Below, in pieces: positions 5,570-8,596 of a DNA stretch of 41,266 nt. Source of the stretch: a virus (lineage: Duplodnaviria > Heunggongvirae > Uroviricota > Caudoviricetes); IMG/VR virus record IMGVR_UViG_2534681675_000019; one strand, 5' to 3'. Each line of letters starts with the position of its first letter. Within the stretch, counting starts at the first letter, position 1. Below the pieces are notes generated by a model. It did no database searches, was not told the origin of the DNA, and saw nothing but the letters and a program-made list of their open reading frames with translations. Made by a program: the position numbers and the translations under genes.

Positions 5570-6154
5570 TTATTGTTTGTTTTTTTCGTTCTGGTTGATG
5601 ACAAATTCAATGTAACTTTCGATCTTTGCTTTCTCGGTTTCAGGTAACAATGCGTAGCGCGAGCGGTCATAGTTGATAGTTGCAGGATCGTGCGGGTGAA
5701 TCAGTAGTTCATATCCGTGACGCCCGAATGCAGATGCAACATTCTCCAGGGTGGAAATGGAAACGCTGACCTCATTGTTTAACAGGCGGCTGATTGTCAC
5801 CTGGGCGACGCCGGATGCGCGGTGAAGTTTTCCCTGTGTTGAAAGGTCGCGGCTTTCGCTCATCCAGCGTTCCAGGTTGTGAGCCGCTAGCTGACCAATG
5901 TCGCTTGGGCCGACAGGCTGAAAACCTTCCTGAGAAAGCGAGCGATCGATATCAAGCCAGTTACGGGGTTTATTGGCGGCAGCTTCAATTTTTCGCGCAA
6001 CCTGGTCGCCGATAACCTTCTTGCCAAGAGCCCAGCGGTTTACCAGATTTGCCTGAGTTCCAAGTTTTTCTGCCATCCGCGTCTGAACACCATTGAATTC
6101 ACGGTCGATCAAGTCGTTGAGATTTTGCCTGCGGACGTCCTGGATACTTTTCAT
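5570..6154 (-). CDS. Prophage repressor, CI-like, tandem HTH, no peptidase S24 domain
   Basis: 194 aa; two XRE-type HTH segments (QTRMAEKLGTQANLVNRW and ASGVAQVTISRLLNNE); divergent from a Cro-like gene across an operator-rich spacer; no Ala-Gly/Ser-Lys autocleavage module visible. Confidence 0.7.
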   Translation of the reverse strand: MKSIQDVRRQNLNDLIDREFNGVQTRMAEKLGTQANLVNRWALGKKVIGDQVARKIEAAANKPRNWLDIDRSLSQEGFQPVGPSDIGQLAAHNLERWMSESRDLSTQGKLHRASGVAQVTISRLLNNEVSVSISTLENVASAFGRHGYELLIHPHDPATINYDRSRYALLPETEKAKIESYIEFVINQNEKNKQ

Positions 6155-6209
6155 TTTCTGGAAAATCGCCTCATATATGAATCAGTAGATGATTCAATTT
6201 AAAGCAATA

Positions 6210-6272
6210 TTACCCAACAGGTAAATGCACCCCATAGGTAACTATCCTTGATTTTTGTTACCTTATGGGTGA
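6210..6272. promoter_or_regulatory. Divergent immunity promoter/operator region (OR-like) with three TTACC-N5-GGTAA-type sites
   Basis: 6210-6224 TTACCcaacaGGTAA; 6227-6241 gcACCccataGGTAA (half-degenerate); 6258-6272 TTACCttatgGGTGA; between repressor start (6154) and Cro-like start (6309). Confidence 0.55.
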
Positions 6273-6308
6273 ATATTTATTATCTGAAATAAATATCAGG
6301 CAATAGCT

Positions 6309-6539
6309 ATGAGCGATAACGGACATTTCGATTTCAAAAAGCACTGGCTTGCACTTACTCCGGATGAGCGTGAAGCCTTCGCACAGGAAGCCGGAACGAC
6401 GAGTCACTATATCCAGACTCACTTAACAGGTAAGCGCAAAATGCCAGGTAAGGTATTGATGGATGGGCTTTTTAAAGCCTGTAAATCAAGACAATGGCTG
6501 CGCTCAAAAGCAGAACTGGCATACTTCTTCTACTCATGA
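6309..6539 (+). CDS. Cro-like small HTH regulator
   Basis: 76 aa; HTH-like segment FAQEAGTTSHYIQTHLTGKR; first rightward gene opposite the repressor. Confidence 0.5.
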   Translation: MSDNGHFDFKKHWLALTPDEREAFAQEAGTTSHYIQTHLTGKRKMPGKVLMDGLFKACKSRQWLRSKAELAYFFYS

Positions 6540-6560
6540 TATCCAGCCACAACCCTCTGT

Positions 6561-6586
6561 AGACCGCCATCCGGCGGTCTTTTCAT
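6561..6586 (+). terminator. Intrinsic terminator after the Cro-like gene (tR1-like position)
   Basis: Stem AGACCGCC/GGCGGTCT (6561-6580) followed by TTTTC. Confidence 0.6.
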
Positions 6587-6689
6587 ATCTATTCGTACCT
6601 CAAAGGTAATAAAAAACCAAATATGGTTGATCTTTTTTTTGTGTCAGCACAAAATAACCGTAATCCCAATACTAATAACAGGGCTTACC

Positions 6690-6890
6690 ATGGAAATCAT
6701 TACACGTATTGATGCCGCAAAGCGCGGACTTAAACGCTACTACACCGGAAAACCATGTAAGCACGGACATGACAGTGAACGCTGGGTTTACAACGGACAC
6801 TGTGTTGAGTGCACCATGGAATCAAACCGTCGCATCAGGGCAGAGATTAAGCAGATCATGATTAATTCCTCCCCACAACACTCAAGCTGA
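6690..6890 (+). CDS. Small Cys/His-rich protein (possible zinc-binding regulator, CII-like position)
   Basis: 66 aa from ATG 6690 (MEIITRIDAAKRGLKRYYTGKPCKHGH...GHCVEC); the track ORF starts 21 codons earlier in hydrophobic read-through. Confidence 0.4.
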   Translation: MEIITRIDAAKRGLKRYYTGKPCKHGHDSERWVYNGHCVECTMESNRRIRAEIKQIMINSSPQHSS

Positions 6891-6905
6891 TAGCGGAGAT
6901 TAATC

Positions 6906-7697
6906 ATGAGCAGACATGCAACAGATTGGGCCTGGGAGACAGATCCAGGTAGCTCATCATTAAAGCTCATACTGCTCTCGATGGCTGACAGAGCCGATGA
7001 ATATAACCTCTGCTACCCCAGCATAGAACGCCTCGTTAAAGACACTTGCCTGAATAAAAAAACCGTGCAGGCCGGACTTATATCGCTCATGAAAATGGGG
7101 CTTATTTCAGATACCGGAGAGAGAAAGGGAGCGACGAAAAGAGTGCGGGTTTTCTCTCTTAATATAACCAAAAACGGGAACATTAAAGGCAACCGAGAAG
7201 GGGGTAATGAACCCGAAAACGGTAATGTTACCGAAAACGGGAATATACCCAAAAACGGGATGTTGAATGATCCCAAAAACGGGATCCAGAACCAGTCATA
7301 TAACCAGTCATTTAACCAAGAGAGGGAGAGCAGGACAAAAACCGGGGATTCTGTGCCTCATGACCCCGGCGCAAACAACGCCGTGATGAATAACTTTGTT
7401 CCTCCTGGTGGGCCAGGGCAATTAGGCAAATTTGTCATGCATGAACAATGGCAGCCATCAGATGACTTTCTTCGGAAAAGCTCATTGCAGGGAATCTACC
7501 TTGACAGTCTGCCAACGGCACAGGAACTTGCAGAGTTCAGAATTTACTGGATGGCTGAGGGTAAGGCATACCATCAGGCACAGTGGGAGCAGAAGCTGGC
7601 AAGGCGGCTGCAGATTAGCAGACAGAAGCTATCAACATTACCTGATAACAACGTTCCGCACTGGAACAGCCCTGAAGCATGGGAGGATTTCTTGTGA
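6906..7697 (+). CDS. Replication initiator, lambda O-like
   Basis: 263 aa; N-terminal winged-helix-like block; iteron repeats lie inside the coding sequence and encode an NG-rich linker; immediately upstream of a P-like gene. Confidence 0.65.
   Translation: MSRHATDWAWETDPGSSSLKLILLSMADRADEYNLCYPSIERLVKDTCLNKKTVQAGLISLMKMGLISDTGERKGATKRVRVFSLNITKNGNIKGNREGGNEPENGNVTENGNIPKNGMLNDPKNGIQNQSYNQSFNQERESRTKTGDSVPHDPGANNAVMNNFVPPGGPGQLGKFVMHEQWQPSDDFLRKSSLQGIYLDSLPTAQELAEFRIYWMAEGKAYHQAQWEQKLARRLQISRQKLSTLPDNNVPHWNSPEAWEDFL
7168..7286. repeat. Origin iterons: five direct repeats CC(A/G)AAAACGG(G/T)A
   Basis: Copies begin near 7168, 7213, 7231, 7249 and 7273; three consecutive copies are 18 bp apart; followed by an ACCAGTCAT x2 repeat. 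Confidence 0.6.
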
Positions 7698-8479
7698 ACA
7701 ACGTTTTTACCGCGATACAAAACCGTGACGGAGAAGCCCTTTCTCGCATGTCAGGTTATGAGCATCAGTACACCAACAATGACAACGTGGTGAACATGTC
7801 AGCAGAGAGGCTTGTTGATGCCCTTTTCAAACAGCTGAAACAACTGTTTCCGGCGGCAGTGGTAACCAACCTGAAGAGGCCAGAGCAGGAAGTCGCTGCA
7901 AAACAGCAGTGGATTGCTGCGTTTGCTGAAAGTGGGATCCGAACCCGTGAACAGGTTTCTGCTGGTATGCGCCACGCCCGCGCCAGTGAATCTCCGTTCT
8001 GGCCGTCGCCAGGGCAATTCATCAAGTGGTGTAAAGACAGCAAGATGGTTCTTGGCGTCACCATTGACGATGTGATGGCGGAGTTTCATCGGTACAGCAA
8101 GGAAAAAAGTTTATATCCTGGTGGTCCCGAAAGATTCCCGTGGCGACATCCGGTTATGTACTGGGTCGTATGTGATACCCGCCGTGCAATGTATCAGCGC
8201 CAGCTTAGCGAGATTGAGGTTGAGAAACACGCGCGCAGGCTGCTCGATGATTGGGCGAAAAAGGTGGCTTCCGGACAGCAGATACCCGATCCGGTGATCA
8301 GCATACAGGCAAAGCCAGAGCCCATGAGTACACCTCCGGACACAGGGAGAGACGTTTACCATCCACCAGGGCGAAGTTTCGGGTGCATGCCTAACGCCGC
8401 CACCCTTGGGGGAATAACACCGGCGCAGTGGCTGATGGAGGAATACAGGCGGGGAAAGGCGGCAGGATTTATCAAGTAA
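7679..8479 (+). CDS. Replication protein, lambda P-like (helicase loader)
   Basis: Central block ...WIAAFAESGIRTREQVSAGMRHARA...PFWPSPGQFIKWCKD resembles lambda P (from memory). Likely true start is GTG 7694, after a GGAGGA Shine-Dalgarno. Confidence 0.65.
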   Translation: MGGFLVNNVFTAIQNRDGEALSRMSGYEHQYTNNDNVVNMSAERLVDALFKQLKQLFPAAVVTNLKRPEQEVAAKQQWIAAFAESGIRTREQVSAGMRHARASESPFWPSPGQFIKWCKDSKMVLGVTIDDVMAEFHRYSKEKSLYPGGPERFPWRHPVMYWVVCDTRRAMYQRQLSEIEVEKHARRLLDDWAKKVASGQQIPDPVISIQAKPEPMSTPPDTGRDVYHPPGRSFGCMPNAATLGGITPAQWLMEEYRRGKAAGFIK

Positions 8480-8516
8480 TACCAGCGCGATAGCGCATTT
8501 TTTTACGCCTATATGA

Positions 8517-8593
8517 TTACCTTGTAGGTAATAAAATGTTCTAATTACTATTGATTTCATGTCTTATGTGGTTTTTAATTACCTAAGGGGTAA
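8517..8593. promoter_or_regulatory. Two TTACC-N5-GGTAA sites upstream of the nin-like gene block
   Basis: 8517-8531 TTACCttgtaGGTAA and 8579-8593 TTACCtaaggGGTAA; the second overlaps the ribosome-binding region of the 8597 gene. Confidence 0.5.
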
Positions 8594-8596
8594 ATC

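What the first reader, a model, noticed from the sequence alone, without database searches (positions are those of the whole stretch)
7168..7286. Replication origin iterons embedded in the O-like initiator gene
Five direct repeats of CC(A/G)AAAACGG(G/T)A, three of them exactly 18 bp apart, lie within the initiator coding region and encode an Asn/Gly-rich linker, followed by a short ACCAGTCAT x2 repeat. This is the lambda arrangement (ori inside gene O) and supports theta-type, O/P-dependent replication using the host DnaB.
Basis: partly seen in the sequence, partly recalled or inferred. Interest (0 to 1): 0.45.

Follow-up and report, generated by a model that had tools for sequence, protein, structure and literature searches.

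The report
Phage replication origin inside initiator gene
Five short DNA repeats inside the replication-initiator gene of this phiV10-like E. coli phage are very probably the initiator's own binding sites, the phage's replication origin; this is the textbook lambda layout, built around a different initiator protein.

Summary
Five copies of CC(A/G)AAAACGG(G/T)A lie at 7168-7284, spaced 45/18/18/24 bp. They occur nowhere else in the 41-kb window. Two AACCAGTCAT 12-mers follow at 7290-7313.

All of these lie in the disordered-linker codons of a 263-aa initiator (6906-7697). A lambda-P-like helicase-loader gene comes next (7679-8479).

Comparative evidence favours a DNA-level element over a mere protein repeat:
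- In 30 diverse homologous loci the exact 10-mer occurs 73 times in the linker region and 0 times in the other 83.5 kb.
- 14 of 72 coding-strand copies lie in other reading frames (spacings 17, 23, 25 nt).
- Synonymous sites of the adjoining domain are saturated (36% identity).
- The repeats follow the N-terminal winged-helix domain, not the C-terminal domain or the phage genus.
- Copy number varies from 5 to 9 among near-identical phages.

The initiator is not a lambda O family member. It combines Pfam HTH_36 with a DnaT-like C-terminal domain, and no strongly AT-rich unwinding region is present.

Verdict: a probable lambda-style origin that the phiV10 reference record does not annotate. It is a new member of a known kind. 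Origin function itself remains untested.

The parts
6906..7697 (+). Replication initiator gene (263 aa). It has an N-terminal winged-helix domain, a repeat-encoding linker and a DnaT-like C-terminal domain.
   Evidence: ORF. Pfam HTH_36 (aa 18-67, 2e-10) and DnaT domain (aa 176-242, 2.5e-15). PHROG 1032 'replication initiation protein', 5e-102. Annotated as replication initiation protein in phiV10.
6906..7169 (+). Codons 1-88: winged-helix domain, the presumed iteron-binding (origin-specificity) domain.
   Evidence: AlphaFold2 model has mean pLDDT 90.4, topology H-H-H-H plus a beta-hairpin wing, and residues 90-95 below 50. Foldseek finds winged-helix DNA binders, including plasmid Rep N-terminal domains 4pql, 4pt7 and 5kbj, with weak E-values (best 4.8e-3, Rep domains about 2-5e-2). 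The domain has 555 clusters (50% identity) at E<=1e-10.
7168..7179 (+). Iteron 1, CCAAAAACGGGA.
7213..7224 (+). Iteron 2, CCGAAAACGGTA.
7231..7242 (+). Iteron 3, CCGAAAACGGGA.
7249..7260 (+). Iteron 4, CCAAAAACGGGA, in context ATACCCAAAAACGGGATG.
   Evidence: This is the 24-bp unit that is duplicated in phiV10 and EC.W1-9.
7273..7284 (+). Iteron 5, CCAAAAACGGGA. Its context GATCCCAAAAACGGGATC has perfect 6-bp inverted arms.
   Evidence: The dyad is read directly from the sequence.
7290..7313 (+). Two tandem 12-mers (AACCAGTCATAT, AACCAGTCATTT), proposed to be part of the unwinding/loading region.
   Evidence: In 15 of 16 related loci the element starts exactly 7 nt after the last iteron. Its period is 12 here and in L091 but 13 in six other lineages, so the second copy is read in another frame there. 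phiV10 has three copies. It is a local duplex-stability minimum at the 95th percentile.
7318..7341 (+). Purine-rich strand-asymmetric tract AAGAGAGGGAGAGCAGGACAAAAA. It stands where relatives have a very A-rich tract and lambda has its A+T-rich region.
   Evidence: Lambda's A+T-rich region is strongly purine/pyrimidine asymmetric (PMC5043065).
7419..7676 (+). Codons 172-257: DnaT C-terminal-like domain, presumed to bind ssDNA.
   Evidence: phmmer against PDB: E. coli DnaT chains 9zbt, 6aep, 4ou6 and 2ru8 at E = 1.6e-20 to 6e-19, DnaT residues 85-170.
7679..8479 (+). Lambda-P-like helicase loader gene, overlapping the end of the initiator gene.
   Evidence: Pfam PF06992 at 1.3e-56, full model length. 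PHROG 109 'P-like helicase loader' at 8.5e-92.
6255..6283 (+). Promoter-like site upstream of the cro-like ORF. Rightward early transcription from here would cross the origin.
   Evidence: Consensus scan only. Gene order of repressor(-)/small ORF(+)/terminator/initiator/P matches the phiV10 annotation.

Best explanation
The region 7168-7341 is the replication origin of a phiV10-like (Uetakevirus) temperate phage, embedded in its own initiator gene.

Proposed steps (inferred unless marked otherwise):
1. The N-terminal winged-helix domain of the 263-aa initiator binds the five CC(A/G)AAAACGG iterons. These carry short inverted CCC/GGG arms around an A5 tract. Binding assembles a multi-protein complex like the lambda O-some.
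2. This complex, helped by early rightward transcription, destabilises the adjacent segment. That segment is the two AACCAGTCAT 12-mers plus the purine-rich tract (7290-7341).
3. The clustered DnaT-like C-terminal domains capture the single strand.
4. The C-terminal tail recruits the lambda-P-like protein encoded next door, which delivers host DnaB.

Shown here:
- The repeats exist and are unique in the window.
- They are conserved as DNA, independently of reading frame.
- They are linked to the N-terminal domain.
- The domain identities are established.

Inferred, not shown:
- Binding of the initiator to the repeats.
- Unwinding.
- ssDNA capture.
- DnaB delivery.
- Origin activity itself.
For: (1) Uniqueness: 5 matches against 0.74 expected, all within 117 bp. 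These are the top tandem arrays in the window.

(2) DNA-level conservation: in 30 diverse homologous loci the exact 10-mer CCRAAAACGG occurs 73 times in nt 240-580 of the initiator genes and 0 times in the remaining 83.5 kb, counting both strands. The hosts include Escherichia, Edwardsiella, Vibrio, Pseudoalteromonas, Proteus, Acinetobacter, Burkholderia and Desulfovibrio.

(3) Frame independence: 14 of 72 coding-strand copies lie in the two minority frames. Spacings of 17, 23 and 25 nt are common. Of 120 representative proteins, 29 and 46 show the shifted-frame translations PKT. and .QKR in their linkers. One locus has an inverted copy.

(4) Saturated background: third-codon-position identity at conserved residues of the adjacent N-terminal domain is only 36%.

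(5) Non-conservative amino-acid changes keep the DNA pattern CCC-W6-GGG: KN, KI, KF, IY and EN.

(6) Co-inheritance with the DNA-binding domain: epsilon15, SPN1S and Tyrion share the genus and the DnaT-like C-terminus but have another N-terminus, and they have no such motif. GF-2 and AP22 have this N-terminus with other C-termini and partners, and they do have it.

(7) Among 61 distinct near-identical genes, iteron cores are less polymorphic than the spacers (mean minor-allele frequency 0.0033 versus 0.031).

(8) The first iteron starts at codon 88, where the confident winged-helix model ends.

(9) A P-like loader gene follows. phiV10 has no annotated helicase, primase or polymerase gene and no other annotated origin.

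(10) Precedent: lambda, P22 and L each carry their own iterons inside the initiator gene. Natural iteron-number variation (4 versus 6) is known in Stx phages.
Against: There is no experiment on any member of this initiator/iteron family in the literature I could search.

The window lacks a strongly AT-rich unwinding element. The 12-mer region is only at the 95th percentile of instability, and an equally weak minimum lies left of the array.

In this particular phage all five copies are in one frame and arose by duplication, so the window alone cannot separate DNA-level from protein-level selection. The case rests on relatives.

The motif counts were partly conditioned on the CC/GG pattern.

The homology of the N-terminal domain to lambda O is not significant by hhalign (probability 2.8%).
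Confidence: 0.8

Rival explanations
1. The repeats are only a by-product of a low-complexity Asn/Gly-rich protein linker. Replication slippage expanded the linker, and the repeats have no function as DNA.
For: In the window all spacings are multiples of 3 and all copies share one frame. Copy number changes in in-frame 18- and 24-bp steps among close relatives, with proteins of 263-311 aa. The linker is predicted to be disordered.
Against: The same 10-mer is kept in three reading frames and once inverted. It is kept while neighbouring synonymous sites are saturated. It is kept through non-conservative amino-acid changes. It is absent from homologues that have a different N-terminal domain.
Confidence: 0.03
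2. The repeats are genuine binding sites of the initiator's winged-helix domain, but they serve regulation rather than marking where replication starts. Possible roles are autoregulation or roadblock of the early operon, titration, handcuffing or copy control, or exclusion of related phages.
For: Iterons in plasmids do both jobs (PMC5043065). No strong AT-rich DUE is adjacent. In Stx phages the distal iterons are bound weakly yet needed.
Against: No other repeat array or candidate origin exists in the window. The fixed 7-nt link to the conserved 12/13-mers, and the A-rich tract in relatives, reproduce the iteron plus unwinding-region layout of the mapped lambda origin and the annotated P22 origin.
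Confidence: 0.1
3. The protein is a DnaT-type primosomal factor, as many records name it. In this reading it works with host PriA/PriB in recombination- or restart-dependent replication, fed by the phage RecE/RecT-like genes, and the repeats are not an origin.
For: The C-terminal domain matches E. coli DnaT residues 85-170 at 1e-20. The DnaT C-terminal domain docks on PriA/PriB and filaments on ssDNA (PMC13377028). phiV10 encodes a RecE/RecT fusion upstream.
Against: Only the C-terminal domain of DnaT is present, and the N-terminus is a winged-helix dsDNA-binding fold. Only 17 of 120 family representatives have the DnaT domain, while nearly all fetched loci have the repeats. The initiator's C-terminal tail and the N-terminus of the P-like protein are exchanged together in 10 of 80 contigs, which points to a partnership with P.
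Confidence: 0.05

Closest known systems
Bacteriophage lambda origin (ori-lambda) with O initiator and P loader
   Same: The origin lies in the linker-coding middle of the initiator gene. It has several same-orientation repeats with inverted C-rich/G-rich arms around an A-tract. Lambda's ATCCCTCAAAACGAGGGA compares with ATCCCAAAAACGGGAT here. A strand-asymmetric purine-rich segment follows the repeats. The P-family loader gene comes immediately downstream and overlaps the initiator gene. The position in the early rightward operon behind a cro-like gene and a terminator is the same.
   Different: The initiator does not match Pfam Phage_rep_O (PF04492) or Phg_2220_C. It is HTH_36 plus a DnaT C-terminal domain. 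Iteron cores are 12-16 bp at 18/24-bp spacing, against 18 bp at 20-24 bp in lambda. The half-sites are about 3 bp closer. There is no 40-bp strongly A+T-rich tract. Lambda's origin is experimentally proven; this one is not.
P22 gene 18 and phage L gene 18 origins
   Same: Each phage has its own iteron sequence inside the initiator gene, identified largely by inspection. P22's annotated rep_origin has iterons followed by a tandem 14-mer (ACAAAAGACAATAT / ACAAAAGACAATAA) in the A-rich part. This is analogous to the tandem AACCAGTCAT 12-mers here.
   Different: P22 gp18 belongs to PF04492 (6.9e-38) and pairs with a phage DnaB-type helicase (gene 12), not a P-like loader. The iteron sequences are unrelated.
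DopC/DopE of Cellvibrionales and Oceanospirillales (Brezellec et al. 2017, PMC5509034)
   Same: The two-gene architecture is identical: HTH_36 plus a DnaT C-terminal motif, followed by a lambda-P family protein.
   Different: DopCE are domesticated chromosomal genes, and the authors found no iteron-like sequences in dopC. Here the pair sits in a phage and carries iterons, so it looks like the undomesticated form. I did not compare the sequences directly.
E. coli DnaT (primosomal protein i)
   Same: The C-terminal three-helix ssDNA-binding domain is homologous (E about 1e-20).
   Different: No DnaT N-terminal domain is present. The protein has a sequence-specific winged-helix domain and cognate repeats instead. 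Many records name it 'primosomal protein I/DnaT', which describes only one domain.
Iteron plasmids (for example RK2, P1, F, pPS10)
   Same: They have an array of replicon-specific initiator sites next to an unwinding region that can consist of repeated 13-mers. The initiator has a winged-helix fold, and there are weak fold matches to plasmid Rep N-terminal domains.
   Different: Plasmid iterons are usually intergenic and bind monomers. Here the array is translated as part of the initiator itself.

Membership tests
Lambda O-type initiator (Pfam PF04492 N-terminus plus Phg_2220_C C-terminus) | N-terminal domain matches Phage_rep_O (PF04492). | tested here: not met
   Pfam scan at E<=0.01 gives only HTH_36 and DnaT. 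Lambda O and P22 gp18 score 5.7e-36 and 6.9e-38 on PF04492. hhalign of the N-terminal profile against lambda O gives probability 2.8%. The only link is indirect: both proteins hit PHROG 678 and 345 with their N-termini.
Lambda O-type initiator (Pfam PF04492 N-terminus plus Phg_2220_C C-terminus) | C-terminal P-interacting domain of the lambda O type. | tested here: not met
   The C-terminus is DnaT-like. Relative GF-2 does carry a lambda-O-like C-terminus behind the same N-terminus and iterons.
Lambdoid 'origin inside the initiator gene' arrangement | At least 4 direct repeats in the inter-domain part of the initiator gene. | tested here: met
   Five copies at 7168-7284, starting at codon 88 where the folded domain ends.
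Lambdoid 'origin inside the initiator gene' arrangement | Repeats conserved as DNA and specific to the DNA-binding domain type. | tested here: met
   73 versus 0 occurrences, three reading frames, and absence when the N-terminal domain differs.
Lambdoid 'origin inside the initiator gene' arrangement | Adjacent A+T-rich DNA-unwinding region. | tested here: inconclusive
   The 12-mer region is only a modest stability minimum (95th percentile), with a purine tract of 43% GC. Several relatives have a clear A-rich tract of 28-30% GC at that position.
Lambdoid 'origin inside the initiator gene' arrangement | Helicase-loader or helicase gene immediately downstream. | tested here: met
   PF06992 Replication protein P at 1.3e-56 and PHROG 109 at 8.5e-92.
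Lambdoid 'origin inside the initiator gene' arrangement | The initiator binds the repeats, and the fragment supports initiator-dependent replication. | not testable with these tools
   Needs EMSA or footprinting and a replication assay.
HTH_36 / DnaT_C phage replication initiators (PHROG 1032) | HTH_36 N-terminus, DnaT C-terminal domain, and a full-length match to the PHROG profile. | tested here: met
   HTH_36 at 2e-10 and DnaT at 2.5e-15. PHROG 1032 at 5.4e-102 over residues 1-261.
E. coli DnaT (primosomal protein) | DnaT N-terminal oligomerisation domain and the PriB-docking linker. | tested here: not met
   Homology covers only DnaT residues 85-170. The N-terminus is a winged helix.

The most novel reading that the evidence does not exclude
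The CCAAAAACGG iterons, the fixed-offset AACCAGTCAT 12/13-mers and an A/purine-rich tract together define one widespread origin type. It is shared by hundreds of phage and prophage lineages across Proteobacteria. Its winged-helix/iteron module is freely recombined with different helicase-recruiting C-terminal modules. In the phiV10 version the DnaT-like domains, brought together on the iterons, would form a filament on the opened 12-mer strand. The protein would then act like a minimal DnaA (dsDNA localisation plus ssDNA filament), and it would be the undomesticated ancestor of the bacterial DopC/DopE helicase-loading pair.
Probability: 0.25. Interest if true: 0.55.

Novelty: new member of a known kind. 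Interest (0 to 1): 0.35.

Why it matters
It gives the phiV10/Uetakevirus group a concrete, testable origin. The group includes prophages in about 8% of complete E. coli genomes, and the phiV10 reference record annotates no origin.

It corrects a widespread naming habit. 'Primosomal protein I/DnaT' describes only the C-terminal domain of what is an origin-binding initiator.

It provides a clean example of a DNA-binding-site code laid over a protein-coding sequence in several reading frames.

It supplies the iteron-bearing phage counterpart to the DopC/DopE pair, which has been proposed as a third kind of bacterial helicase loader.

Practically, the array is a hotspot of copy-number change.

Tried and rejected
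- Rfam scan of 6000-8600 at E<=1 gave no RNA family, so an RNA element is not supported.
- DnaA boxes: three in the whole window, which is the chance level, and none near the repeats. The nearest perfect box is at 8982-8990.
- Iteron-like sites with 3 mismatches (7193, 7316, 7335) are not distinguishable from chance.
- A terminator-like hairpin on the minus strand at 7275-7256 is simply the inverted arms of two neighbouring iterons. I do not take it as a terminator.
- Direct homology of the N-terminal domain to lambda O or P22 gp18 by hhalign is not significant (probabilities 2.8% and 14%).
- The first genome-contig scan with a six-sequence alignment failed for lack of a conserved stretch. It was repeated with three sequences.
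- The viral-contig scan returned only near-identical relatives. These were useful for copy number but not for divergence.
- Literature searches for this iteron family, or for an origin in phiV10/epsilon15-like phages, found nothing specific.
- An inverted repeat CCGGGG/CCCCGG (7342-7347 / 7364-7369) stands where lambda has a palindrome, but 6-bp arms are too short to weigh.

Full report
**1. What is there**

The window segment 7168-7284 holds five same-strand copies of CC(A/G)AAAACGG(G/T)A, starting at 7168, 7213, 7231, 7249 and 7273 (spacing 45, 18, 18, 24). Allowing one mismatch, these are the only matches in all 41,266 bp on either strand. Dinucleotide-preserving shuffles expect 0.74, and none of 100 reaches five.

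Seven bases after the last copy come two tandem 12-mers, AACCAGTCATAT and AACCAGTCATTT (7290-7313). A purine-rich tract, AAGAGAGGGAGAGCAGGACAAAAA (7318-7341), follows. Tandem Repeats Finder ranks these two arrays as the best-scoring tandem repeats in the window.

With flanks, the rightmost copy reads GATCCCAAAAACGGGATC, which has perfect 6-bp inverted arms around an A5 tract. The copies to the left are progressively less symmetric.

**2. Context**

The repeats lie in ORF 6906-7697 (263 aa).
- Pfam finds HTH_36 (aa 18-67) and the DnaT DNA-binding domain (aa 176-242).
- The C-terminal part matches solved E. coli DnaT structures over DnaT residues 85-170 at E about 1e-20.
- An AlphaFold2 model of residues 1-95, built on 62 diverse homologues, has mean pLDDT 90.4. 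It shows a winged-helix topology that ends at about residue 88, and residues 90-95 are disordered. The first repeat begins at codon 88.
- Fold matches are winged-helix DNA binders, including plasmid Rep N-terminal domains, at weak E-values.
- The next gene (7679-8479) is a full-length lambda-P family protein (PF06992, 1.3e-56; PHROG 109, 8.5e-92).

The window is a phiV10-like Uetakevirus; the initiator gene is 94-99% identical to those of phiV10 and its relatives.

The gene order is repressor (minus strand), small cro-like ORF, terminator, small ORF, initiator, P-like. This is the early-right-operon layout.

The complete phiV10 record annotates no origin and no helicase, primase or polymerase gene.

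**3. DNA element or protein repeat?**

In this phage all copies share one reading frame, so the window alone cannot decide. Relatives can.

*Sampling.* tblastn against phage genomes and a scan of species-representative bacterial genomes gave about 30 loci. Their N-terminal domains are 44-87% identical to this one. The hosts include Edwardsiella, Vibrio, Pseudoalteromonas, Marinobacterium, Proteus, Providencia, Wohlfahrtiimonas, Acinetobacter, Burkholderia and Desulfovibrio.

*Result.* Nearly all carry 3-10 copies of the same motif 270-530 nt after the start codon. A typical layout is copies 17/18 nt apart followed by copies 24 nt apart.

The evidence, point by point:
- The exact 10-mer CCRAAAACGG occurs 73 times in nt 240-580 of these genes (10.1 kb). 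It occurs 0 times in the other 83.5 kb of the same loci, counting both strands.
- Of the 72 coding-strand copies, 58 are in one frame, 9 in the second and 5 in the third. Spacings of 17, 23 and 25 nt recur.
- One locus carries an inverted copy.
- Among 120 representative proteins of the family, 29 and 46 show the shifted-frame translations (PKT..QKR) in their linkers.
- Where the frame is kept, the encoded residues change non-conservatively (KN, KI, KF, IY, EN) while CCC-(A/T-rich 6)-GGG is preserved. Several variants are perfect palindromes, for example ACCCAAATTTGGGT in AP22.
- Third-codon-position identity at conserved residues of the adjoining domain is only 36%, so those sites are saturated.
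- Among 61 distinct near-identical genes, the iteron cores are about ten times less polymorphic than the spacers between them.

**4. Which part of the protein do the repeats go with?**

epsilon15, SPN1S and Tyrion belong to the same genus and share the DnaT-like C-terminal domain. They have a different N-terminal domain and no copy of either motif.

Conversely, two phages combine this N-terminal domain and these repeats with other C-termini and partners. Edwardsiella phage GF-2 has a lambda-O-type C-terminus and a P gene. Acinetobacter phage AP22 has another C-terminus and a DnaB-like helicase.

Of 120 family representatives, all have HTH_36, only 17 have the DnaT domain and 2 have Phg_2220_C.

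So the winged-helix domain and the repeats are inherited as one module. That is what is expected of an origin-specificity module.

**5. The second element**

AACCAGTCA starts exactly 7 nt after the last iteron in 15 of 16 loci that have it. It is repeated with period 12 in this window and in Superficieibacter, but with period 13 in six other lineages. In those lineages the second copy is read in another frame: NQSL then EPVI. Burkholderia phage Bcep176 has AACAGTAGG repeats with period 9-10 instead. phiV10 has three copies.

Several relatives follow this element with a very A-rich 60 bp (28-30% GC). Here the equivalent is a purine tract of 43% GC.

A nearest-neighbour stability profile shows only modest minima at 7149-7190 and 7290-7320 (95th-97th percentile of the window). 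No lambda-like A+T-rich block is present.

For comparison, lambda's A+T-rich region is strongly purine/pyrimidine asymmetric (PMC5043065). P22's annotated origin has a tandem 14-mer in its A-rich part. I therefore propose 7290-7341 as the opening/loading region, but this is the weakest step of the model.

**6. Mechanism proposed** (all steps inferred)

1. Initiator molecules bind the five iterons through the winged helix and bend the A-tracts.
2. Early rightward transcription crosses the site.
3. The adjacent 12-mer/purine segment opens.
4. The DnaT-like domains bind the exposed strand. In E. coli these domains form a helical filament on single-stranded DNA (PMC13377028).
5. The P-like protein brings host DnaB.

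In 10 of 80 near-identical contigs, the extreme C-terminal tail of the initiator and the N-terminus of the P-like protein are replaced together. This fits a tail-P contact, as in lambda.

**7. Variation**

Near-identical phages carry 5 to 9 iterons, with a mode of 6; five other contigs have the same five-iteron layout as this window. Both the 18-bp and the 24-bp units vary in number, and proteins range from 263 to 311 aa. Stx phages likewise have 6 iterons against lambda's 4 (PMC7466680). The gene is present in 424 of 5,426 complete E. coli genomes.

**8. Comparison with what is known**

It works like lambda's origin. It is not a member of the lambda O family, because PF04492 and the O-type C-terminus were tested and not met. 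The only link is that both N-termini hit PHROG 678 and 345. It is a member of PHROG 1032 (5e-102).

Its two-gene architecture equals that of DopC/DopE, for which the authors reported no iterons (PMC5509034).

Finding phage-specific iterons inside initiator genes is established practice (phage L paper). I found no paper describing this iteron family or an origin for phiV10-like phages, but the searchable library is limited.

**9. Verdict**

This is a new member of a known kind. Origin activity, protein binding, the site of opening and the replication mode remain untested.

Noticed in passing
window 7290-7341; L007, L091-L093, L095, L099, L101-L103 downstream of their last iteron: A second conserved DNA element, AACCAGTCA(T), is repeated 2-3 times with period 12 or 13. 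It always starts 7 nt after the last iteron and is read in different frames in different lineages. An A-rich or purine-rich tract follows.
   Followed up: yes
L018, L021, L031, L035, L051, L056, L064, L082, L083, L087 (IMG/VR contigs); window 7600-7760 for the equivalent junction: In 10 of 80 near-identical contigs the last ~30 residues of the initiator and the first ~55 residues of the P-like protein are replaced together. The new initiator tail is ...LDWHNTDWIDEVW..., which resembles the lambda O C-terminus NTDWIYGV. This suggests a co-adapted tail-P contact and a recombination junction at the gene overlap.
   Followed up: partly
PP488543.1 (Escherichia phage BP9, L002) 133.4-137.2 kb; also PP350014.1 (phage PH444): A 138-kb record classified as Vequintavirus (a lytic myovirus group) carries this temperate-phage repressor/initiator/P module near its end, at 98.7% identity. 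A 115-kb unannotated record does too. These look like chimeric assemblies or contamination.
   Followed up: no
CP025713.1 (Escherichia phage YDC107_2, L004) 1501-2316: This record has single-base indels inside the A-runs of the iterons (CCCAAAAAACGGG). They break the initiator gene into fragments annotated as separate small proteins. This is likely homopolymer sequencing error in the repeat array.
   Followed up: no
proteins P0271-P0378: Many database 'proteins' with this N-terminal domain are 90-160-aa fragments from very short contigs.
   Followed up: no
window 8982-8990, minus strand: A perfect DnaA box (TTATCCACA) lies about 1.7 kb downstream of the origin region. The window total of three boxes is at chance level.
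   Followed up: partly
window 7256-7275, minus strand: The terminator scan reports a hairpin followed by a T-run. It is formed by the inverted GGGAT/ATCCC arms of neighbouring 24-bp-spaced iterons and their A-tract complement. It is probably not a terminator, though antisense transcripts would meet it.
   Followed up: partly
L107, L108 (Acinetobacter), L112 (Zoogloeaceae), L111 (Sphingobium): More distant family members carry different repeats at the same position. These are palindromic CCAACGTTGG/CCAATATTGG about 62 nt apart, TGCCAAAAGTGGCA twice, or only AACCAGTCA-like copies. They could be used to relate recognition-helix residues to iteron sequence.
   Followed up: no
window 5570-6154 (minus strand) and 6309-6539: The repressor-like protein has two HTH regions (HTH_3 at aa 106-147 and a weak YdaS-like match at aa 21-61). 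The divergent small ORF has no Pfam match. This resembles the epsilon15-type immunity region rather than lambda cI/cro.
   Followed up: no
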